Shown in pieces: positions 4,054-56,083 of a stretch of 64,000 bases of DNA. Each line of letters starts with the position of its first letter. Positions within the stretch are counted from its first letter, which is position 1. The DNA comes from Bacteroidota bacterium (GTDB lineage: Bacteria > Bacteroidota > Bacteroidia > UKL13-3). The notes beneath the pieces were generated by a model that had not been told where the DNA came from, made no database searches, and saw only the letters and a list, made by a program, of their open reading frames with translations. The stretch is taken from NCBI GenBank assembly GCA_034439655.1, contig JAWXAU010000091.1, positions 1,129 through 65,128 on the forward strand. Reading direction: 5' to 3'. A program made the position numbers and the translations under genes.

Positions 4054-4199
4054 CGTCATTCTGAGTCTCGTCACACAATAATCTTGATAATAATCATGAG
4101 TTTTTAAGTCGAGGCGAAGAATCTGTTCAACGTATGTAGGTACTACAATTGTCCTCCCATCCCAAAAGATTCTTCGCGGGAAGCCCGCTCAGAATGACG
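4054..4199. repeat. MITE-like palindromic intergenic element, CGTCATTCTGA family
   Basis: Termini cgtcattctgagtc ... gctcagaatgacg are inverted. Internal inverted arms cgaagaatctg / agattcttcgc. Sits between comEC and lpdA. Related copies occur at 41379, 52393, 55044, 55807 and 59222. Confidence 0.7.
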
Positions 4200-41378: not shown

Positions 41379-41510
41379 CGTCATTCTGATCCCGACTTAT
41401 CGGGATTCAATGCAAAGAATCTCATAAATTTAGATTCGAAAAACAACTATATACTATCGACAGATTCTTCGCCCGAAGCGGGTTCGATAGCAATCGGACT
41501 CAGAATGACG
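41379..41510. repeat. MITE-like element, CGTCATTCTGA family (complete copy)
   Basis: cgtcattctga + hairpin tcccgacttatcgggat ... agattcttcgcccgaagcgggttcgatagc ... ggactcagaatgacg. Perfect 11-bp terminal inverted repeats. Confidence 0.8.
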
Positions 41511-50844: not shown

Positions 50845-50857
50845 CGGTGTGGTTGGT

Positions 50858-50929
50858 GATTTGATAACTTTGACTGCGTCGACGATTGCAAAGTTGTCAA
50901 ATCTTCGTGTCGTGGCAAGTTGTCAAATC
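50858..50929. repeat. GATTTGACAA / TTGTCAAATC motif cluster B
   Basis: gatttgataac (50858), ttgtcaaatc (50894) and ttgtcaaatc (50920). Downstream of acs. Confidence 0.6.
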
Positions 50930-51213
50930 TGCATCGTGTACCAAATCAGCTCGTGGTTTAATACGCACCATCAAATGAAAATGATTGCCCAATAAACAAT
51001 AGGTATAAGTATCCACTAGGGGCGTTAAATATTTATCATATTGTTTTAGAAAAAAACTGTAATTCCTTTCATTACAGAACATAGATTTTTATCTATGCTT
51101 CTTTTGTATACATGATAAAATTTATCTTCTTCGAATCGGGTATAATAATGTGCGACTTTTGCCATATTTGTAGTGGGTTATAATATATTCCAGATACAAT
51201 ATTCTGCGGCAAA

Positions 51214-51262
51214 TTTGACAATTTGTGTTGCCGGGGAATTTGTGGGTCGTATATTTGACAAC
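51214..51262. repeat. GATTTGACAA motif cluster C (opposite orientation)
   Basis: atttgacaa at 51214 and 51254, 40 bp apart. Confidence 0.55.
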
Positions 51263-51346
51263 TCTGCCAAACACCATCAAAAAAGGCGGAGGAAAAATAT
51301 ATAATGATATATTCCCTCCGCCTTGCTAACGATTATAAATTATAAA

Positions 51347-51769
51347 TTAATTCCCGCACACGCAGTGGCCTGCGGCATCACATGCTGCTTTACATTCACC
51401 GCTGCAATCGCTACAGCTACAAGCATCTTCCTTGTCGCAACTGACATCGCATGATGAGCCAGCTATATTTGAAGCTACTGTTTTTGAAGTAGCTGCACCT
51501 TGAACAGTTTTACTATCACAACATTCGCTGCCAGGGGTGCATACACAGTGACCTGCTTCATCGCATTTGGCTTTGCATTCGTCTGGGCAATCTTCGCAAG
51601 TACAGGGTCCGTCACTATCGCATTTTGTATTCGTAGTTTGTGAGGTTTTGTCCTTTTTGCAACAGGCTTTTCCTTCTTCTTTGCAACATGAACCATTGAA
51701 CGCGTATACTACGCCTGCTATTCCTACTACCGCAACAATGGCGGCAATTATCCAATATGATTTTTTCAT
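51347..51769 (-). CDS. Membrane-anchored cysteine-rich protein with a tandemly repeated C.C.DC..ECKA.CD.AGHCVC module (putative metal-binding)
   Basis: 140 aa with an N-terminal TM helix. ~27 Cys. The motif CTCEDCPDECKAKCDEAGHCVC recurs as CSCSDCSGECKAACDAAGHCVC. Confidence 0.55.
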   Translation of the reverse strand: MKKSYWIIAAIVAVVGIAGVVYAFNGSCCKEEGKACCKKDKTSQTTNTKCDSDGPCTCEDCPDECKAKCDEAGHCVCTPGSECCDSKTVQGAATSKTVASNIAGSSCDVSCDKEDACSCSDCSGECKAACDAAGHCVCGN

Positions 51770-51872
51770 TTTAGTATTTTGTTTATTTTAGTATACCCTC
51801 ACGGCGATATACCATTTGTTTAATTAAGCAACCGTAATTTGCTATAATAATAGATGTTTAATTTTTGTGGTA

Positions 51873-51942
51873 GATTTGACAACGCAGCCAAAGCCTGTGC
51901 GAACACGGAGTTGTTAAAATGCGGTGGTTGATTTGTCAAATC
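51873..51942. repeat. GATTTGACAA / TTGTCAAATC motif cluster D
   Basis: gatttgacaac (51873) and gatttgtcaaatc (51930). Lies in the spacer between the two Cys-rich genes. Confidence 0.6.
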
Positions 51943-51956
51943 AGTGCTGCATAATC

Positions 51957-52343
51957 TCAGCAACTAAAACGCCCTATAAGCAAATGTTTTCGATATTTGC
52001 TAACTAAAGGCGGCCCATGCAAATTGATATAGTGAACATCGTAATTAGATGGGATACTTGCAAGATGATAAATAGGTGCAGAAGGGAGCAGAGCCATGGA
52101 ACAAGAATGATTGGGCTCAGTAATACTAGCTGCGGCTACATGGTCGGTATGAACTTTCAAATAGAAATTTTGATCATGGCAACAACCTTCTTCTTCACAT
52201 CCTTCATCGCAACCGCAATCGGCATCTGCACCACTGAAAATAACAGCACTAAGCTCCTCACCGCAGAAATGCAATCTCACTGCCACCCCAGTAATACTAA
52301 GGATATAAAGCGAAACGGCAAAGATGGCTGCGAACTTTTTCAT
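51957..52343 (-). CDS. HYC_CC_PP-like protein (signal peptide; HFC, CC and PP motifs)
   Basis: 128 aa. ...RLHFCGEE...CGCDEGCEEEGCCHD...LHGPPL. Recalls the Bacteroidetes HYC_CC_PP family that neighbours TonB-dependent receptors. Assignment is from memory of the motif order. Confidence 0.45.
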   Translation of the reverse strand: MKKFAAIFAVSLYILSITGVAVRLHFCGEELSAVIFSGADADCGCDEGCEEEGCCHDQNFYLKVHTDHVAAASITEPNHSCSMALLPSAPIYHLASIPSNYDVHYINLHGPPLVSKYRKHLLIGRFSC

Positions 52344-52392
52344 AATTCAATTACAAAGTTAGTGCATTGCAAGAGTACAGCCAAATTTATTT

Positions 52393-52537
52393 TTGGGGCA
52401 AACCGTCATTCTGATCCCGACTTATCGGGATTCAATTTGAAGAATCTCATTATAGTTTGCACTATATCAAATAGGTCTTCGAATTCATGAGATTCTTCGC
52501 CCGAAGCGGGTTCGATAGCTATCGGACTCAGAATGAC
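52393..52537. repeat. MITE-like element, CGTCATTCTGA family (complete copy)
   Basis: Near-identical architecture to 41379..41510. Immediately downstream of the TonB-dependent receptor gene. Confidence 0.8.
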
Positions 52538-52545
52538 GGTTCCAA

Positions 52546-54999
52546 TTATATCAAAGGCACTACAATCTTAAAACTAAAATTCCTACCCATATTATTTATC
52601 CCACTTCTGCCCGTATAATTTTGAGGATAATTGTCCATATACTTTAGTCGGCTCATATTGCTTTGATATACCATATTAGTTAGGTTAGTACCTATTATAT
52701 TAAAAGTGAAAAGTATATGTCCTTTTTTATTTACCACATTTGCACCAAAACCCGCATCCAACAACGTGTATCCTGCTGTAAAGGTTTCTGTGCCATAAGC
52801 TAGAAAAACTCTATTTTGTGGAGCATTATATCGAACATCAAATTTTACAAAACCTTGGGTGAAACACAGCCACTTTTTATTGAGTTCAGCACGGATTTCG
52901 TGCGATGTTCTTAAAGGTGGAATAAGAGGCAAATACTTGGTACTATCATTTAAAATTGCCCCGTTTCCTCCCAAATTTTGTGCATATACTACCGAAATTG
53001 CATTTTCAAAATGCAACCAATCATAAGGATGTGGATGGGCATCAACAGATACTTCTCCACCCCACAAACCTGCATTGGTTTGGTGAAATTTGAATACTGG
53101 ATATGCATTCCCATTTTGATTATATATTGAATCACCTCCTTGTATATTTAGTAGTTTTTGATTATATATATAATAGCTAAGTCTGTTATAAAAAACCTCA
53201 CTACTTATAGTAAAATGTTTACCATAATAAAATGCTCCAAAATCGCTCTGCAGGCTAAATTCGGGCTTGAAATTGGCATCGCCTAATTGTTGGAAACTGG
53301 TGCCGGGATGTACTCCTTTTGCAGAGATTTCTGCAATATTTGGTGAACGATAACCGCGTGCAATATTGAACTTATAACATAGTTTTTCACTTCTATTATA
53401 GGTTGCCCCGATGCTCGAGCTCATCCCCGAAAATATATGTTTGTAGTTTTCAAACTGCCATGAAATAGTACTGTCATTCATATTATAAGGTGTTTGTATA
53501 TCAAAACCATTTGTGGCATCTGTTTTTGTATATAATGCTTGGTTGCTGAACGAACGTATATCATATCTTGCTCCTACACTAAAATCAAATTTTTTTACCG
53601 ACTTTTTGATATAAAAAAATGGGCCTATGTCAAATGATTTATAGGCCGGGATAACAAAATCGGTAGCGGTTGCAGCATTTTTGTTTGACTGAACCATGCC
53701 ATTCAACCCTGCGGTAATATGGTATTCTTTATACGGTTGAAAAATATATTTTATATCATAAGTTGCAGTGTTTAAAATTAAATTTAGTCCTGCCAAATCC
53801 GCATACAATGGATGGCTATATTCCCGTCTATGACTTTGTTGCAAACCAAGCTTGACCGTGAGTCTGCTCTTGCCGATAAAAAAGTTTGTGGCAGAATATA
53901 AACGATAATGTTGCACATGCTGATGTATTACATTAATATCATAAGAATTCAAATCGCGAGCGTCAGCAATAAGGCGAATAGTATCTTCCTCACTTACTTT
54001 TTTCGTAAATTTGCGTGTTGCAGAATCACGACTGCCATCGGGGATCTCTTGTATGTTATCATATACTGAAAAATTTAAAGAACTAATTCCCCATTTTTTT
54101 GCTATCCCAATATTTGCATTTAAATCCCTTTCATGGTATTTGGTCCCGAATACTTTTCCATCGTATTTATTATAATAATTACTCGCTTGTTTTTCTGACA
54201 TTCTAAAGCCCCATATAATGCCTTTGTTATTTCCTGCAAGCCCTAAAGAAGTAGCCCATTGCTGATTATTACTTTGATAATTTCCAGTAAAATTTCCGCG
54301 TATCAGCCCCCTAGCAACTGGATTAGCAGGAATTAAATTTACTACTCCTGCCAATGCATCCGAACCATACATTAAACTGGCAGGACCTTTCACAATTTCT
54401 ATACGGTCTATTAAATATTGATCTACTTCAATGCCATGCTCATCGCCCCATTGTTGGCCGTCTTGTCGCACGCCGTCAAATAAAGTTAGAATACGGTTGT
54501 ATCCCAATCCTCTTATATAAGGTTTTGATACATTCGGTCCTGTAGTAACCGCACTCACGCCTGGAACTTTTGCAATTAAGTCTATAATATTGGCGGCTTG
54601 ATTTTGTTGTATATATCTTCTATCAATACGCACCATAGGTATTGGACTTTTTCGTTCGTCGGTGGGCGATCCTACACCTGTTACTACTGCACCATGCAGC
54701 TCAACTGCTGAGTGTGACAGTACCAAAGAAATTAAACTTTTCATGGTATTATTTATCGTGATAATTTTTTGAGAAAAACCTGTTGCGGAAATCTCTACCA
54801 AAAAATTCCCACTTGGTAAGTTTTGTATATTAAAAAAACCTAAGCTGTCTGATAATTCCGTTGTTTTTAAATCGGGAATATATATAGTTGCTGAGATTAT
54901 TGGTTTGTTGTCTTCGTCTATTACCCTACCTCGTATACCGTCTTTGGCGAGTAGTTGTAGGGGTAAAATATATATAAGTATTTGTATGATGTGTTTCAT
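52546..54999 (-). CDS. TonB-dependent outer-membrane receptor with an N-terminal carboxypeptidase-regulatory-like domain
   Basis: 817 aa. Signal peptide, CarbopepD_reg-like (GRVIDEDNKPIISATIYI), a plug (TonB-box region, ...IEIVKGPASLMYGSDALAGVVNL) and a long beta-barrel. Confidence 0.85.
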   Translation of the reverse strand: MKHIIQILIYILPLQLLAKDGIRGRVIDEDNKPIISATIYIPDLKTTELSDSLGFFNIQNLPSGNFLVEISATGFSQKIITINNTMKSLISLVLSHSAVELHGAVVTGVGSPTDERKSPIPMVRIDRRYIQQNQAANIIDLIAKVPGVSAVTTGPNVSKPYIRGLGYNRILTLFDGVRQDGQQWGDEHGIEVDQYLIDRIEIVKGPASLMYGSDALAGVVNLIPANPVARGLIRGNFTGNYQSNNQQWATSLGLAGNNKGIIWGFRMSEKQASNYYNKYDGKVFGTKYHERDLNANIGIAKKWGISSLNFSVYDNIQEIPDGSRDSATRKFTKKVSEEDTIRLIADARDLNSYDINVIHQHVQHYRLYSATNFFIGKSRLTVKLGLQQSHRREYSHPLYADLAGLNLILNTATYDIKYIFQPYKEYHITAGLNGMVQSNKNAATATDFVIPAYKSFDIGPFFYIKKSVKKFDFSVGARYDIRSFSNQALYTKTDATNGFDIQTPYNMNDSTISWQFENYKHIFSGMSSSIGATYNRSEKLCYKFNIARGYRSPNIAEISAKGVHPGTSFQQLGDANFKPEFSLQSDFGAFYYGKHFTISSEVFYNRLSYYIYNQKLLNIQGGDSIYNQNGNAYPVFKFHQTNAGLWGGEVSVDAHPHPYDWLHFENAISVVYAQNLGGNGAILNDSTKYLPLIPPLRTSHEIRAELNKKWLCFTQGFVKFDVRYNAPQNRVFLAYGTETFTAGYTLLDAGFGANVVNKKGHILFTFNIIGTNLTNMVYQSNMSRLKYMDNYPQNYTGRSGINNMGRNFSFKIVVPLI

Positions 55000-55043
55000 T
55001 GTTTTTTTTGGTTTGCAGTCATTCCTATTAAATCGCCATTGTG

Positions 55044-55206
55044 TTCGCCGCGGCGAATTGTTTCAATACGAAGAATCTGTTGGATCGTAGTCGAAACCCG
55101 CTCCCTATGAACAGATTCTTCGTCTCGTTTATAAAGTATTTCTAAATATTAGAAATTATCGTTTGACGAGACTCAGAATGACGTTGATGCTGACTCAGAA
55201 TGACGG
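55044..55206. repeat. Composite palindromic repeat (TTCGCCGCGGCGAA + CGAAGAATCTG hairpin + two ACTCAGAATGACG termini)
   Basis: ttcgccgcggcgaa at 55044. cgaagaatctg(55069)...cagattcttcg(55112). actcagaatgacg at 55171 and 55193. Confidence 0.7.
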
Positions 55207-55264
55207 TAATGAATGATGTTAAAAGAAATAAAATGGGTTAATCAATAGTAAAAAAACTATAATA

Positions 55265-55672
55265 TTAACAAAAACCAAAAACAGGTGGCCCTTTATTGGC
55301 AGCACGCAACAAAAATTCTTGGTGCGAAGCTATATATATAATTTGCTTAGGAGCAAGTAATGTTATAATATCTTTTTGAAATGGAAGTGTTGCACTTTCC
55401 AGATATTTTGCTGTTTCAAATTTGCATAATTTGCAGTGTTCTTTCTCGGTAGTAATATGCTGACTATGTCCACAGATTGATTGTGTTAGATTTCCAGGCA
55501 ATAAGGTGGCTACCATACAAGCATGCTCGGGCTCATCGTGAATATGAGTTGGGTTCACACAAACTTCAAACTCATGCTCGTGCCACAAACCTGCAGGTAT
55601 TTGGCAGAAGCTGAATACCACTAGTATGAACCAAGTTTGTAGCTGTTTGTAAAATATCATTTGCGAGGGCAA
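55265..55672 (-). CDS. His/Cys-rich putative metal-binding protein
   Basis: 135 aa with an N-terminal hydrophobic segment. HEHEFEVCVNPTHIHDEPEHACM...CGHSQH...EHCKLCKF. Confidence 0.45.
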   Translation of the reverse strand: MPSQMIFYKQLQTWFILVVFSFCQIPAGLWHEHEFEVCVNPTHIHDEPEHACMVATLLPGNLTQSICGHSQHITTEKEHCKLCKFETAKYLESATLPFQKDIITLLAPKQIIYIASHQEFLLRAANKGPPVFGFC

Positions 55673-55719
55673 AGATAGGGGAGGGATTTTGGATATAGGA
55701 CATAGGATTTTGGATATGG

Positions 55720-55858: not shown

Positions 55859-56083
55859 CTACAAATCCCAAAGCCTATTGCGGCGGCGGCGGCGGATATA
55901 GCGTGTCATGTTTCGCCAAAAATCGACCACCATGCCAGCCACCACAAAGGGTGACCCTATAGCGATAAAACTGGTATATATAAAAAACATCCGCACCCTG
56001 CGGCTCTCAATACCCATGGTGTCGCCAAGAAAGCTAAACATTTTGAAGGCTGATTTTTCTATATAATACTTTAATTGTTCCAT
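55859..56083 (-). CDS. Small hypothetical membrane protein (PspC-like?)
   Basis: 74 aa. One TM helix and an Arg-rich C-terminus encoded by a (GCG)n run. Weak resemblance to PspC domain proteins. Confidence 0.3.
   Translation of the reverse strand: MEQLKYYIEKSAFKMFSFLGDTMGIESRRVRMFFIYTSFIAIGSPFVVAGMVVDFWRNMTRYIRRRRRNRLWDL

What the first reader, a model, noticed from the sequence alone, without database searches (positions are those of the whole stretch)
51347..55672. Putative metal-acquisition locus: His/Cys-rich protein - TonB-dependent receptor - HYC_CC_PP-like protein - tandem-Cys membrane protein
Four co-oriented genes are separated only by MITE copies.
- A 135-aa protein with HEHEFEVCVNPTHIHDEPEHAC and EHCKLCKF motifs.
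- An 817-aa TonB-dependent receptor with a CarbopepD_reg-like N-domain.
- A 128-aa protein with HFC / CC / PP motifs, like the HYC_CC_PP family known to neighbour TBDRs.
- A 140-aa membrane-anchored protein with ~27 Cys in duplicated CxCxDCxxECKAxCDxAGHCVC modules, reminiscent of metallothionein or copper-chaperone chemistry.

The combination suggests a copper, zinc or other thiophilic-metal uptake or sequestration system. The tandem-Cys protein in particular has no family I can name.
Basis: partly seen in the sequence, partly recalled or inferred. Interest (0 to 1): 0.55.

Follow-up and report, generated by a model that had tools for sequence, protein, structure and literature searches.

The report
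Leader-peptide-controlled metal receptor locus
A soil-type Bacteroidota genome carries an outer-membrane metal-import gene preceded by a small "sensor" gene that probably switches it on or off by stalling the ribosome, next to a second small gene paired with a very rare, extremely cysteine-rich exported protein; the kind of regulation is known from copper systems of other bacteria, but this version and the cysteine-rich protein are undescribed.

Summary
The four co-oriented genes are real. The TonB-dependent receptor (TBDR) and HYC_CC_PP calls are confirmed; the Cys-rich protein has 23 Cys, not about 27.

The locus looks like two transcription units, not one four-protein pathway.

**Unit 1: ORF1 plus the TBDR.** ORF1 (131 aa) belongs to an unmodelled Bacteroidota family:
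- It sits directly upstream of this TBDR orthogroup in 56 of 76 species-level loci.
- It has an N-terminal export segment, invariant His/His/Cys, and a C-terminal [R/K][A/G]PP motif 1-6 residues before the stop.
- The central Cys lies 47-49 residues before that motif.

This is the architecture of CruR/CutF (DUF2946), nascent-chain copper sensors that control downstream genes by ribosome stalling. DUF2946 is the recurrent sub-threshold Pfam hit for family members, though not for ORF1 itself.

**Unit 2: HYC_CC_PP plus the Cys-rich protein.** It has its own conserved Bacteroidota promoter. The Cys-rich family has only about 10 known members among 1.8 billion representatives. All Bacteroidota members with known context follow an HYC_CC_PP gene.

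**Metal identity is unresolved.**
- Copper: multicopper oxidase, MbnP and AhpC/TSA neighbours in relatives.
- Zinc: COG0523, Fur-family and ABC neighbours of leaderless orthologues, and a His-only conserved set in the TBDR.

Verdict: a new variant of a known kind, of moderate interest.

The parts
55670..55677 (-). Candidate Bacteroidota -7 promoter box (TATCTTTG), 9 nt upstream of the ORF1 ATG
   Evidence: Sequence read. The equivalent TATATTTG box sits 11-13 nt before the ATG in L003 and L001. No -33 TTTG was found, so this is an inference.
55265..55660 (-). ORF1: 131-aa CruR/CutF-like leader ORF. It has an N-terminal hydrophobic export segment, His27/His29, C76xxC79 and K123-G-P-P126, 5 residues before the stop.
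   Evidence: The mechanical ORF extends to the TTG at 55672.
55283..55294 (-). Codons for KGPP, the RAPP-like putative ribosome-arrest motif of ORF1
   Evidence: The family alignment A3 has invariant PP and near-invariant R/K. The motif lies 1-6 aa from the C-terminus in all 46 members.
55000..55264 (-). 265-nt ORF1-TBDR spacer. The first ~80 nt are shared with relatives; the rest is occupied by a composite MITE (55062-55207) that folds into strong hairpins.
   Evidence: fold z-score -4.0. Relatives have 113-120 nt spacers.
52546..54999 (-). 817-aa TonB-dependent receptor of the heme/ZnuD-like branch, with an N-terminal CarboxypepD_reg-like domain
52401..52541 (-). 141-bp MITE with CGTCATTCTGA-type terminal inverted repeats, in the TBDR-ORF3 spacer
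   Evidence: inverted repeat I5.
52354..52385 (-). Full match to the Bacteroidota promoter consensus (TTTG-N20-TAACTTTG), 10 nt upstream of the ORF3 ATG; conserved in relatives
   Evidence: conserved in L001, L003, L005.
51957..52343 (-). ORF3: 128-aa HYC_CC_PP family protein. It has an N-terminal TM segment, H25-F-C27, CGC/CC54-55 and H109-G-P-P112, followed by a conserved 16-residue tail ending FSC.
   Evidence: It corresponds to Pfam PF26622/DUF8199 in relatives.
51791..51843 (-). Block conserved among relatives inside the ORF3-ORF4 spacer. It includes the inverted repeat (C/T)ACGGT ... GCCGTG (51831-51836 / 51800-51805) and a local hairpin. It may be an RNA structure or an operator.
   Evidence: There is no covariation and the function is unknown.
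51347..51769 (-). ORF4: 140-aa exported protein with 23 Cys and two CxCxxCxxECKAxCxxAGHCVC modules; an orphan family
51277..51324 (-). Intrinsic-terminator-like 18-bp hairpin followed by a T run, immediately after ORF4. It marks the end of unit 2 in this genome.
   Evidence: Inverted repeat I14; sequence read.

Best explanation
This is a two-unit extracytoplasmic metal-homeostasis locus of a Chitinophagaceae-like Bacteroidota MAG.

**Unit 1: ORF1 plus the TBDR**
- ORF1 is a cis-acting, exported leader ORF of the CruR/CutF (DUF2946-like) kind.
- While it is being translated and exported, its His/Cys sensor region (H27, H29, C76xxC79, plus extra His/Cys in this clade) is proposed to report periplasmic metal.
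- The C-terminal KGPP (RGPP/RAPP in the wider family) is proposed to stall the ribosome.
- Whether the stall persists would decide whether the G-poor spacer is transcribed or translated through into the downstream heme/ZnuD-type TBDR.
- The importer would therefore be made when the metal is scarce and shut off when it is plentiful.

**Unit 2: ORF3 plus ORF4**
- This unit has its own promoter.
- It encodes the HYC_CC_PP protein, followed by a rare exported 23-Cys tandem-module protein.
- That protein is proposed to bind or buffer a thiophilic metal in the periplasm.
- In relatives this unit continues into T9SS-secreted AhpC/TSA-like and multicopper-oxidase-like genes, which this genome has lost.

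**Metal**
- Copper or zinc. Copper is slightly favoured for unit 2. Zinc versus copper is open for unit 1.

**Shown**
- The gene calls, family memberships and synteny.
- Motif and spacing conservation in the ORF1 family.
- Promoter conservation upstream of ORF3.
- The rarity of ORF4.

**Inferred**
- Ribosome arrest, metal sensing, the direction of regulation, metal identity, and metal binding by ORF4.
For: **ORF1 family and the TBDR**
- ORF1 homologues lie immediately upstream of TBDR orthologues (41-83% identity) across Bacteroidota. A small ORF ending in [RK][AG]PP is present in 56 of 76 loci that have at least 400 nt of upstream sequence.
- Of 913 mechanical ORFs of 90-200 aa in those loci, 57 carry the C-terminal motif, and all 57 are directly upstream of a TBDR.
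- The 46-member alignment has invariant H27 and PP, and near-invariant H29, C76 and R/K123.
- The distance from the central Cys to the motif is 47-49 residues in all 46 members. In CruR it is 49 (C90 to R139), and DUF2946 spacing is conserved to within 1-2 residues (PMC9426467).
- DUF2946 is the top sub-threshold Pfam hit, in register with the profile's C-terminus, for nine members or the family consensus. The best scores are 23.4 and 23.1 bits against a gathering threshold of 23.7.
- ORF1 meets the operational CutF-like definition (PMC9973294):
  - shorter than 150 aa;
  - PP within the last 15 residues;
  - N-terminal signal;
  - a same-strand downstream gene less than 1 kb away.
- RGPP, HGPP and RAPP are recognised arrest-type motifs (PMC10987492).
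- Spacers between the leader ORF and the TBDR are G-depleted: 12.5% G against 20.5% locus-wide, with C>G in 52 of 58.
- Gene content downstream of the TBDR is not conserved, so leader ORF plus TBDR is the conserved unit.

**Unit 2**
- A full -33/-7 Bacteroidota promoter match is conserved upstream of ORF3.
- HYC_CC_PP followed by a Cys-rich gene is found in seven independent Bacteroidota occurrences. One of them lacks an adjacent TBDR.
- A possible analogue exists in a high-GC bacterium.

**Metal context**
- Multicopper oxidase, AhpC/TSA and MbnP genes occur in relatives.
- CobW, FUR, MerC, FtsX and SCO1 genes flank leaderless orthologues.
Against: **ORF1 and the leader family**
- ORF1 itself gives no Pfam or NCBIfam hit, and no family member reaches the DUF2946 gathering score.
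- ORF1 has KGPP rather than RAPP.
- RAPP-like motifs alone often do not stall ribosomes (PMC10987492).
- Nothing is known about arrest on Bacteroidota ribosomes.
- The G-poor spacer composition may simply reflect Bacteroidota 5' regions.
- In this window a MITE has been inserted between ORF1 and the TBDR. It may have altered or broken the coupling.

**ORF3**
- Its PP motif is followed by 16 strongly conserved residues. That fits a stable protein better than a terminal arrest peptide.
- Profile-profile comparison gives no support for homology to the ORF1 family (probability 10%).

**ORF4**
- The structure model is unusable (pLDDT 44.6).
- Each module has an even number of Cys, which could form disulfides rather than bind metal.

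**Metal**
- The copper and zinc context signals conflict.
Confidence: 0.6

Rival explanations
1. All four proteins are working parts of one uptake or sequestration pathway. ORF1 and ORF3 are stable, membrane-anchored or periplasmic metallochaperones that take metal from the TBDR. ORF4 is the sink.
For: - All three small proteins carry export-type N-termini and His/Cys motifs.
- ORF3 has a conserved tail after its PP motif, as a folded protein would.
- Fitness data linked DUF2946 genes to copper uptake before a regulatory role was proposed (bioRxiv 10.1101/072470).
- The gene order is conserved within the clade.
Against: - The ORF1 family keeps only H, H, C and a terminal R[AG]PP at a fixed distance. 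The rest is highly variable, with a mean column identity of 20%. That is typical of arrest or leader peptides, not chaperones.
- It is always the first gene, immediately upstream of the TBDR.
- Characterised relatives, CruR and CutF, act in cis and their products are undetectable or rapidly degraded (PMC9426467; PMC9973294).
- ORF3 has its own promoter, and its pairing is with ORF4 rather than the TBDR.
Confidence: 0.22
2. Zinc system. The TBDR is a ZnuD-like zinc importer, the leader ORF senses zinc through a His2Cys(2) site, and ORF4 is a periplasmic zinc-thiolate (metallothionein-like) buffer. The copper-enzyme neighbours in relatives are incidental.
For: - Orthologues at 44-45% identity that lack the leader ORF sit next to CobW/COG0523 GTPases, Fur-family regulators, FtsX/MacB-type ABC systems and MerC. 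This is the classic Zur-regulon make-up, from established knowledge.
- The conserved TBDR residues are His only, with no conserved Cys and only isolated Met (H188 at 100%, plus H359, H396, H657, H663).
- The best PDB and NCBIfam neighbours are heme receptors and ZnuD, not OprC.
- The invariant ligands of the leader family are His, His and Cys.
- CutF-like proteins are not all copper-specific (PMC9973294).
Against: - The ZnuD model scores 50.5 bits against a cut-off of 950.
- A SCO1/SenC copper chaperone lies in the same cluster in L072.
- Unit 2 is followed by multicopper-oxidase-like genes, or by MbnP, in two independent lineages.
- The characterised DUF2946 leaders sense copper.
- No Zur box was identified.
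Confidence: 0.4
3. Not a thiophilic-metal system. The TBDR imports heme or another non-metal-ion ligand. The small Cys-rich proteins are disulfide-rich structural or redox proteins unrelated to metal binding.
For: - The top NCBIfam matches are the heme/hemoglobin/transferrin receptor subfamilies, aligned over the full length at 135.6 and 124 bits.
- A plug-apex His is conserved at 100%, two residues from the position that aligns with the His in ShuA's apex loop (TGHLNG). That this His (His86) ligates heme is from established knowledge.
- There is a His between FRAP-like and NPNL-like boxes (sequence).
- ORF4 modules have even Cys counts, and no metal-binding family is hit.
Against: - The heme-family scores are far below the cut-offs of 317-324 bits.
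- The L7 His is only 69% conserved.
- No heme-utilisation genes occur in any of about 80 neighbourhoods.
- The recurrent metal-related neighbours are Cu/Zn-type.
- The leader ORF carries the Cys/His motif and RAPP architecture of metal-sensing leaders.
Confidence: 0.08

Closest known systems
CruR (Bp2923, DUF2946) and the cruR-bfrG-bp2921 operon of Bordetella pertussis (Roy et al. 2022, PMC9426467)
   Same: - A small first gene of under 150 aa with an N-terminal export signal.
- A central Cys motif.
- A fixed spacer of about 45 residues to a C-terminal RAPP-type motif a few residues before the stop.
- A long spacer to the next gene.
- A TonB-dependent transporter as the next gene.
- DUF2946 is the recurrent best Pfam match for members of the ORF1 family.
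   Different: - The phylum is Bacteroidota. The CruR survey listed Proteobacteria plus a few Planctomycetes, Firmicutes and Deinococcus.
- No family member reaches the Pfam threshold, and ORF1 itself gives no hit.
- The motif is R/K-G-P-P more often than RAPP.
- Two invariant His follow the signal segment.
- Many members have CxC or a single Cys rather than CxxC.
- The TBDR is heme/ZnuD-like rather than BfrG/OprC-like, and there is no PepSY_TM partner.
- The metal is unknown. Rho dependence and arrest are untested.
CutF and the 'CutF-like' proteins of Rhodobacter capsulatus and other bacteria (Öztürk et al. 2023, PMC9973294; bioRxiv 10.1101/2025.02.05.636593)
   Same: - It fits the operational definition: short, signal peptide, PP near the C-terminus, same-strand downstream gene.
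- That survey already counted many Bacteroidota members and named TonB-like genes as frequent neighbours.
- Unit 2 in relatives precedes multicopper-oxidase genes, as cutF precedes cutO.
   Different: - CutF uses CxxxC and a PPP stretch, and melts a stem-loop that hides the cutO ribosome-binding site.
- Here the target of unit 1 is an importer, and Bacteroidota largely lack Shine-Dalgarno-based initiation (my own knowledge).
- ORF3's PP lies 16 residues from the end, just outside the 15-residue rule.
- I could not check whether this family is one of their 29 clusters, because the supplement is not held.
HYC_CC_PP family (NCBIfam NF047658; Pfam PF26622/DUF8199)
   Same: ORF3 scores above the curated cut-off and carries the three name-giving motifs (HFC, CC, PP).
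   Different: No function is published; no paper mentions either name. New here: the family member heads its own promoter-driven unit and is invariably followed by the Cys-rich gene in this clade and in L088.
ZnuD (zinc) and heme-type TonB-dependent receptors (ShuA, PhuR); OprC (copper)
   Same: - A 22-strand-type TBDR with a plug.
- A conserved plug-apex His and His-rich loops.
- The best sequence neighbours are the heme receptors and ZnuD.
- Orthologues lie in Zur-regulon-like clusters.
   Different: - It is far below every curated equivalog cut-off.
- It lacks OprC's conserved Cys/Met site.
- It has an N-terminal CarboxypepD_reg-like domain typical of Bacteroidota TBDRs.
Bacterial metallothioneins (SmtA/BmtA, Pfam PF02069)
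   Same: - Short Cys-dense modules with CxC, CxxC and a conserved His (CxCxxC ... GHCxC).
- Tandem duplication.
- A plausible thiolate-cluster metal binder.
   Different: - There is no sequence match to PF02069 or to any PDB chain.
- ORF4 is exported through an N-terminal signal or anchor, whereas metallothioneins are cytoplasmic.
- It has 8-9 Cys per module.
- Metal binding is untested.

Membership tests
TonB-dependent receptor (Pfam Plug PF07715 + TonB_dep_Rec_b-barrel PF00593) | Plug and beta-barrel domains above the Pfam gathering scores | tested here: met
   Plug scores 84.6 bits (gathering threshold 23.9) and the barrel 74.3 bits (27). CarbopepD_reg_2 scores 47.5 bits (32.2) at the N-terminus.
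TonB-dependent copper receptor OprC/NosA (TIGR01778) | Equivalog score at or above the cut-off; a CxxxM/HxM copper site | tested here: not met
   The score is 33.9 bits against a cut-off of 472.45. No conserved Cys was found in 77 orthologues.
ZnuD zinc-piracy receptor (NF038289) | Model score at or above the cut-off | tested here: not met
   The score is 50.5 bits against 950, over the plug only. The functional resemblance rests on the context of orthologues.
Heme/hemoglobin TonB receptors (TIGR01785/TIGR01786) | Subfamily score at or above the cut-off | tested here: not met
   The scores are 124 and 135.6 bits against cut-offs of 316.85 and 323.75, although the alignment runs the full length.
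HYC_CC_PP (NF047658) | Model score at or above the curated cut-off | tested here: met
   ORF3 scores 35.1 bits against 28, covering model positions 2-126 of 131. The L088 homologue scores 51.1 bits.
HYC_CC_PP (NF047658) | The three name-giving motifs: H-Y/F-C after the TM segment, CC, and PP | tested here: met
   H25-F-C27, C54-C55 and P111-P112 are invariant in alignment A7.
DUF2946 / CruR (Pfam PF11162), for ORF1 | Pfam HMM score at or above the gathering threshold | tested here: not met
   ORF1 gives no hit at E<=1. The best family members score 23.4 and 23.1 bits against a threshold of 23.7. Nine sub-threshold hits lie in the same register.
DUF2946 / CruR, CutF-like, for ORF1 | N-terminal signal peptide or Nin-Cout TM segment | tested here: met
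   A hydrophobic stretch (W10-I21) follows K5, and an equivalent segment is present in all 46 aligned members. This was judged by inspection; no signal-peptide predictor was available.
DUF2946 / CruR, CutF-like, for ORF1 | A conserved Cys metal-binding motif (CxxC or CxxxC) | tested here: met
   ORF1 has C76-K-L-C79. C76 is near-invariant in the family, but the second Cys is CxxC, CxC or absent in different members.
DUF2946 / CruR, CutF-like, for ORF1 | A C-terminal RAPP-type or proline-rich motif within the last ~15 residues | tested here: met
   ORF1 has KGPP at 123-126 of 131. The family has R[AG]PP 1-6 residues from the stop. K replaces R in this clade, so ORF1 carries a variant of the motif.
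DUF2946 / CruR, for ORF1 | Fixed spacing between the Cys motif and the RAPP motif (45 intervening residues, +/-2, in DUF2946) | tested here: met
   ORF1 has 43 residues between C79 and K123. In the family the first Cys lies 47-49 residues before the motif in all 46 members, against 49 in CruR.
DUF2946 / CruR, CutF-like, for ORF1 | First gene of the operon, with a same-strand downstream target and a long spacer | tested here: met
   The spacer to the TBDR is 265 nt here and 113-120 nt in close relatives. All 57 motif-bearing ORFs are directly upstream of a TBDR.
DUF2946 / CruR, CutF-like, for ORF1 | Metal-dependent ribosome arrest and cis control of the downstream gene | not testable with these tools
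   This needs reporter, toeprint or pulse-labelling experiments.
CutF-like (operational definition of PMC9973294), for ORF3 | [quoted passage not shown] | tested here: not met
   The PP lies at 111-112 of 128, so 16 residues follow it. The other criteria are met: under 150 aa, an N-terminal hydrophobic segment, and a same-strand downstream gene 187 nt away.
Bacterial metallothionein (PF02069), for ORF4 | Pfam model match | tested here: not met
   No Pfam family other than a spurious Wzz TM match appears at E<=1. There is no PDB relative.
MITE (spacer elements) | Short non-coding element with terminal inverted repeats, present in several copies | tested here: met
   CGTCATTCTGA termini occur 9 times against 0 expected. 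Elements of about 130-150 bp lie at 4054-4199, 41379-41510 and 52401-52541, with a composite at 55062-55207. Target-site duplications were not examined.

The most novel reading that the evidence does not exclude
Two linked novelties are not excluded.

(a) The R[AG]PP leader ORFs in front of this Bacteroidota TBDR orthogroup may be zinc-sensing, not copper-sensing, nascent-chain regulators. That would be the first zinc-responsive arrest peptide.

(b) The HYC_CC_PP-plus-ORF4 pair may be a new system in which a second exported sensor ORF controls a previously unknown class of exported, periplasmic metallothionein-like protein. A possible analogue exists outside Bacteroidota (L090).
Probability: 0.25. 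Interest if true: 0.75.

Novelty: new variant of a known kind. Interest (0 to 1): 0.55.

Why it matters
Control of metal transporters by a nascent exported peptide (CruR, CutF) has been shown experimentally only in two Proteobacteria.

**A natural data set for the mechanism**
- A divergent Bacteroidota family, absent from Pfam and NCBIfam, precedes one conserved TBDR orthogroup in most species examined.
- It keeps the Cys-to-RAPP spacing of CruR.
- It offers dozens of sequence variants (RGPP, RAPP, RSPP, KGPP; CxxC, CxC, or a single Cys).
- These variants could show what the ribosome tunnel and the sensor actually need.
- It could also test whether the mechanism works in a phylum with unusual translation initiation and Rho.

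**Annotation**
- It corrects how such small 'His/Cys-rich hypothetical proteins' should be annotated: as regulatory leaders rather than chaperones.

**The Cys-rich protein**
- It has 23 Cys, is exported, and has about 10 known relatives among 1.8 billion representatives.
- In Bacteroidota it always follows an HYC_CC_PP gene.
- It is a concrete candidate for a periplasmic metal buffer.
- It gives the uncharacterised HYC_CC_PP family its first testable partner.

Tried and rejected
1. **Word-index homology searches.** ORF1, ORF3 and ORF4 each returned only 4-5 close relatives. Diversity had to be reached through TBDR orthologue loci.
2. **Profile-profile comparison of the ORF1 family with HYC_CC_PP.** Only the TM segment and a His align, at 10% probability. 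Homology of ORF1 and ORF3 was not claimed.
3. **AlphaFold2 model of ORF4.** Mean pLDDT was 44.6, so no fold search was made.
4. **PDB profile search with the ORF4 family.** It returned only noise: pleiotrophin at E=6.
5. **Multicopper-oxidase and T9SS genes of relatives.** They were searched for in the window and are absent.
6. **Genes downstream and upstream of the ~80 TBDR orthologues.**
   - No conserved partner exists apart from the leader ORF.
   - The recurrent clusters are housekeeping synteny: an MsbA-like ABC exporter, a small zinc-ribbon-type membrane protein, thiolase and DnaB, named by reading the sequences.
7. **Candidate operators.**
   - The GC-rich palindrome TTCGCCGCGGCGAA lies upstream of both ORF1 and the TBDR. 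It is a dispersed repeat, with 6 copies in the window and none in related loci.
   - The direct repeat ATCCAAAATCC upstream of ORF1 is not conserved in relatives.
   - No Fur/Zur/CopR-type box can therefore be proposed.
8. **Consensus fold of the ORF3-ORF4 spacer.** A 6-bp long-range pairing is predicted, but without covariation.
9. **tblastn of an HYC_CC_PP protein against plasmids.** No match.
10. **Supplement of PMC9973294.** It was searched to see whether these taxa are in the CutF-like list, but it is not held as text.
11. **Transposase remnant next to ORF4.** A Pfam scan of a frameshift-corrected translation gave no Y1_Tnp hit, so that call stays motif-level only.

Full report
**1. What is there**

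The minus strand of 51347-55672 carries four co-oriented ORFs exactly as described.

| Gene | Coordinates | Length | Call |
|---|---|---|---|
| ORF1 | 55265-55672 (mechanical TTG start) | 131 aa from the ATG at 55660 | no family |
| TBDR | 52546-54999 | 817 aa | TonB-dependent receptor |
| ORF3 | 51957-52343 | 128 aa | HYC_CC_PP |
| ORF4 | 51347-51769 | 140 aa | no family |

- The ATG at 55660 matches the starts of ORF1 relatives.
- Pfam finds CarbopepD_reg_2, Plug and barrel domains in the TBDR.
- NCBIfam places ORF3 in HYC_CC_PP at 35.1 bits against a cut-off of 28.
- ORF1 and ORF4 hit no Pfam or NCBIfam family.
- ORF4 has 23 Cys and 2 His.
- Against three relatives, all three small ORFs differ mainly at third codon positions, so all are coding.
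- The exact ORF1 sequence is on record as a hypothetical protein of a 'Bacteroidota bacterium' MAG.
- The closest genome-collection locus is a Chitinophagaceae MAG.

**2. Spacers**

- Elements with CGTCATTCTGA termini occur 9 times in the window against 0 expected.
- One complete 141-bp copy fills most of the TBDR-ORF3 spacer (52401-52541).
- A composite copy (55062-55207) fills most of the ORF1-TBDR spacer.
- A partial copy lies upstream of ORF1.
- Relatives lack these elements and have 113-120 nt ORF1-TBDR spacers.
- The ORF3-ORF4 spacer has no such MITE. It carries a different TTTGACAA-type palindrome and a block conserved in relatives.
- An 18-bp hairpin plus a T run follows ORF4.

**3. 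Synteny in close relatives**

- The string ORF1-TBDR-HYC_CC_PP-Cys-rich is conserved in all close relatives.
- In several relatives it continues into more genes:
  - a T9SS-tailed AhpC/TSA-like protein;
  - two further T9SS proteins;
  - two multicopper-oxidase-like proteins.
- That block is absent from the whole window.
- In its place lies a short remnant with an HUH-like motif, flanked by palindromic repeats.

**4. ORF1 is the conserved partner of the TBDR and looks like a CruR/CutF-type leader**

A scan of one genome per species with the TBDR returned 80 orthologue loci at 41-83% identity, from Chitinophagaceae, Mucilaginibacter, Pedobacter, Spirosoma, Dyadobacter and others.

Position:
- Local iterative searches found ORF1 homologues immediately upstream of the TBDR in most loci.
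- ORF3 and ORF4 homologues occur only in the close clade.
- By motif, 56 of 76 loci with enough upstream sequence have a 97-135 aa ORF ending in [RK][AG]PP 0-8 residues before the stop.
- Four more carry RSPP, RRPP or LSPP variants.
- As a control, 913 mechanical ORFs of 90-200 aa exist in these loci. Of these, 57 carry the motif, and all 57 are directly upstream of a TBDR.

Sequence features:
- The 46-member alignment is very divergent, with a mean column identity of 20%.
- It has invariant H27 and the two Pro, and near-invariant H29, C76 and R/K123.
- The central Cys lies 47-49 residues before the motif in every member.

Comparison with published systems:
- In Bordetella pertussis CruR (DUF2946), CxxC is at 90-93 and RAPP at 139-142.
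- That spacing is conserved to within 1-2 residues across the DUF2946 family.
- The gene heads a copper-repressed TBDR operon, with a 162-nt spacer.
- Copper sensing by the nascent chain relieves arrest at RAPP and allows Rho-dependent termination (PMC9426467).
- DUF2946 is the top Pfam hit for nine members or the family consensus. Each time the match ends at the C-terminal end of the profile. All scores are just below threshold; the best are 23.4 and 23.1 bits against 23.7.
- ORF1 meets every operational criterion for 'CutF-like' proteins (PMC9973294).
- That survey already reports many Bacteroidota members, with TonB-like genes as frequent neighbours.
- RGPP, HGPP and RAPP belong to the recognised RAPP-like arrest motifs, although such motifs alone often fail to stall (PMC10987492).

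Other observations:
- Leader-TBDR spacers have 12.5% G against 20.5% locus-wide, with C>G in 52 of 58, and often carry a short hairpin. This is compatible with Rho loading or attenuation, but it is not proof.
- Genes downstream of the TBDR are not conserved, so leader plus TBDR is the conserved unit.

**5. Unit 2**

- A full match to the Bacteroidota promoter consensus (TTTG-N20-TAACTTTG) lies 10 nt before the ORF3 ATG. It is conserved in three relatives.
- A -7-like box lies 9 nt before the ORF1 ATG.
- I therefore read the locus as two units, each headed by a small TM-Cys-PP ORF with a very short leader.

ORF3:
- It is a bona fide HYC_CC_PP member.
- Its HGPP motif is followed by 16 strongly conserved residues ending FSC.
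- Profile-profile comparison with the ORF1 family aligns only the TM segment (probability 10%).
- Whether ORF3 is a second leader or sensor, or a stable membrane-anchored metal protein, stays open.

ORF4 family:
- The word-index search of 5.8 billion proteins returned four relatives.
- An exhaustive profile search of 1.84 billion representatives returned five.
- Together with locus-derived copies there are about ten distinct members.
- Every Bacteroidota member with known context follows an HYC_CC_PP gene.
- One example is L088, where the order is T9SS-tailed gene, HYC_CC_PP (51 bits), an 83-aa single-module protein, then MbnP (126 bits).
- Another is L091.
- A metagenome scan found L090, from a high-GC organism. 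It has a 197-aa lipoprotein with two CCKDCTGKCTPDCCKNCTDECKARCAAGNCCC modules, with hhalign probability 86% to the family.
- That lipoprotein is preceded by a 144-aa TM-CC...DPP protein. HYC_CC_PP models do not detect this protein.

**6. Which metal?**

| Evidence | Points to |
|---|---|
| Characterised DUF2946 leaders sense copper | Copper |
| Multicopper oxidase, AhpC/TSA and MbnP genes follow unit 2 in two independent lineages; the CruR paper lists MbnPH-like and AhpC_TSA genes as partners in DUF2946 operons | Copper |
| SCO1 in the L072 cluster | Copper |
| Leaderless orthologues in Chitinophaga and Pedobacter lie beside CobW/COG0523, Fur-family regulators, FtsX/MacB ABC systems and MerC | Zinc |
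| Conserved candidate ligands in 77 TBDR orthologues are His only (H188 100%, H359, H396, H657, H663); no conserved Cys | Zinc |
| The nearest characterised TBDRs are heme receptors and ZnuD, not OprC | Zinc |

Heme is a weaker possibility. I cannot decide between copper and zinc for unit 1. Copper is slightly favoured for unit 2.

**7. Verdict**

- The main correction is that ORF1 is most likely a cis-regulatory, metal-sensing leader ORF, not a metal-handling protein. It belongs to a divergent, unmodelled Bacteroidota branch of the CruR/CutF kind.
- The locus is two units.
- The kind of system is known and has been anticipated bioinformatically for Bacteroidota.
- New here:
  - the defined family with its absolute association to one TBDR orthogroup;
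  - CruR-like spacing despite sub-threshold similarity;
  - the possible zinc link;
  - the HYC_CC_PP-plus-orphan-Cys-rich pair.
- Nothing about arrest, sensing or metal binding is demonstrated.

Noticed in passing
window 50888-51270 (and 51863-51942): Between ORF4's terminator and the acetyl-CoA synthetase gene lies a frameshifted remnant with a YHVY...CLLGNHFHLMV (HUH-like) motif. That motif is reminiscent of REP-associated or IS200-type tyrosine transposases. It is flanked by repeated (A)AGTTGTCAAATCT / TTTGACAA palindromes, which also occur in the ORF3-ORF4 spacer. Pfam does not detect a transposase domain, so the call rests on the motif only.
   Followed up: partly
window 50845-51346 compared with L003:4801-10446 and L005:14129-18433: Relative to close relatives, this genome has lost a block of 5-6 genes between the Cys-rich gene and the neighbouring housekeeping genes. 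The block holds a T9SS-tailed AhpC/TSA-like gene, two T9SS proteins and two multicopper-oxidase-like genes. None of them is anywhere in the 64-kb window. L005/L006 also differ from the window and L003 by an inversion of the whole segment relative to the acetyl-CoA synthetase gene.
   Followed up: partly
window 46620, 55044, 55720, 59256, 59364, 59392: A GC-rich 14-nt palindrome, TTCGCCGCGGCGAA, is dispersed six times in the window (0.06 expected). It is absent from all 92 related loci. This is a genome-specific REP-like repeat, distinct from the CGTCATTCTGA MITEs.
   Followed up: yes
window 4054-4199 and 41379-41510: Two further complete copies (~130-150 bp) of the MITE with CGTCATTCTGA terminal inverted repeats lie far from the locus.
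   Followed up: no
window 55859-56083 (-): A 74-aa small membrane protein with a poly-Arg tail (…YIRRRRRNRLWDL) lies just upstream of ORF1 on the same strand. It is 95% identical to the corresponding gene in L005, where it ends only 23 nt before the leader ORF. It has no Pfam or NCBIfam hit, though its sequence is loosely PspC-like. It may be co-transcribed with unit 1 in relatives.
   Followed up: partly
L072:3900-6851, L076:2954-6738, L077:1787-6906, L050:5991-6506: TBDR orthologues that lack the leader ORF sit in clusters with CobW/COG0523, a Fur-family regulator, MerC, an FtsX/MacB ABC system and (in L072) SCO1/SenC. L050 has both a Fur-family gene and the leader ORF. This suggests that transcriptional control and leader-peptide control are alternative solutions for the same transporter.
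   Followed up: partly
L090:5161-6339: A high-GC, non-Bacteroidota metagenome contig has a 144-aa TM-CC...DPP protein followed by a 197-aa lipoprotein with two very Cys-dense modules related to ORF4 (hhalign probability 86%). The pair is embedded among arginine-catabolism-type genes, named by reading the sequences. It is a possible distant analogue of unit 2.
   Followed up: partly
window 51791-51843 (-); L001, L003, L005 equivalents: This block in the ORF3-ORF4 spacer is nearly invariant among relatives while its flanks diverge. It contains the inverted repeat CACGGT...GCCGTG and a 8-9 bp AT-rich hairpin about 25 nt before the ORF4 start. No covariation is available, and the function is unknown.
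   Followed up: partly
P0003 (99 aa; Logan contig, 3191 nt): One database 'homologue' of ORF4 shares only the first ~44 residues, then continues in another reading frame of the same gene. This is a frameshifted gene call or an assembly error, not a distinct protein.
   Followed up: no
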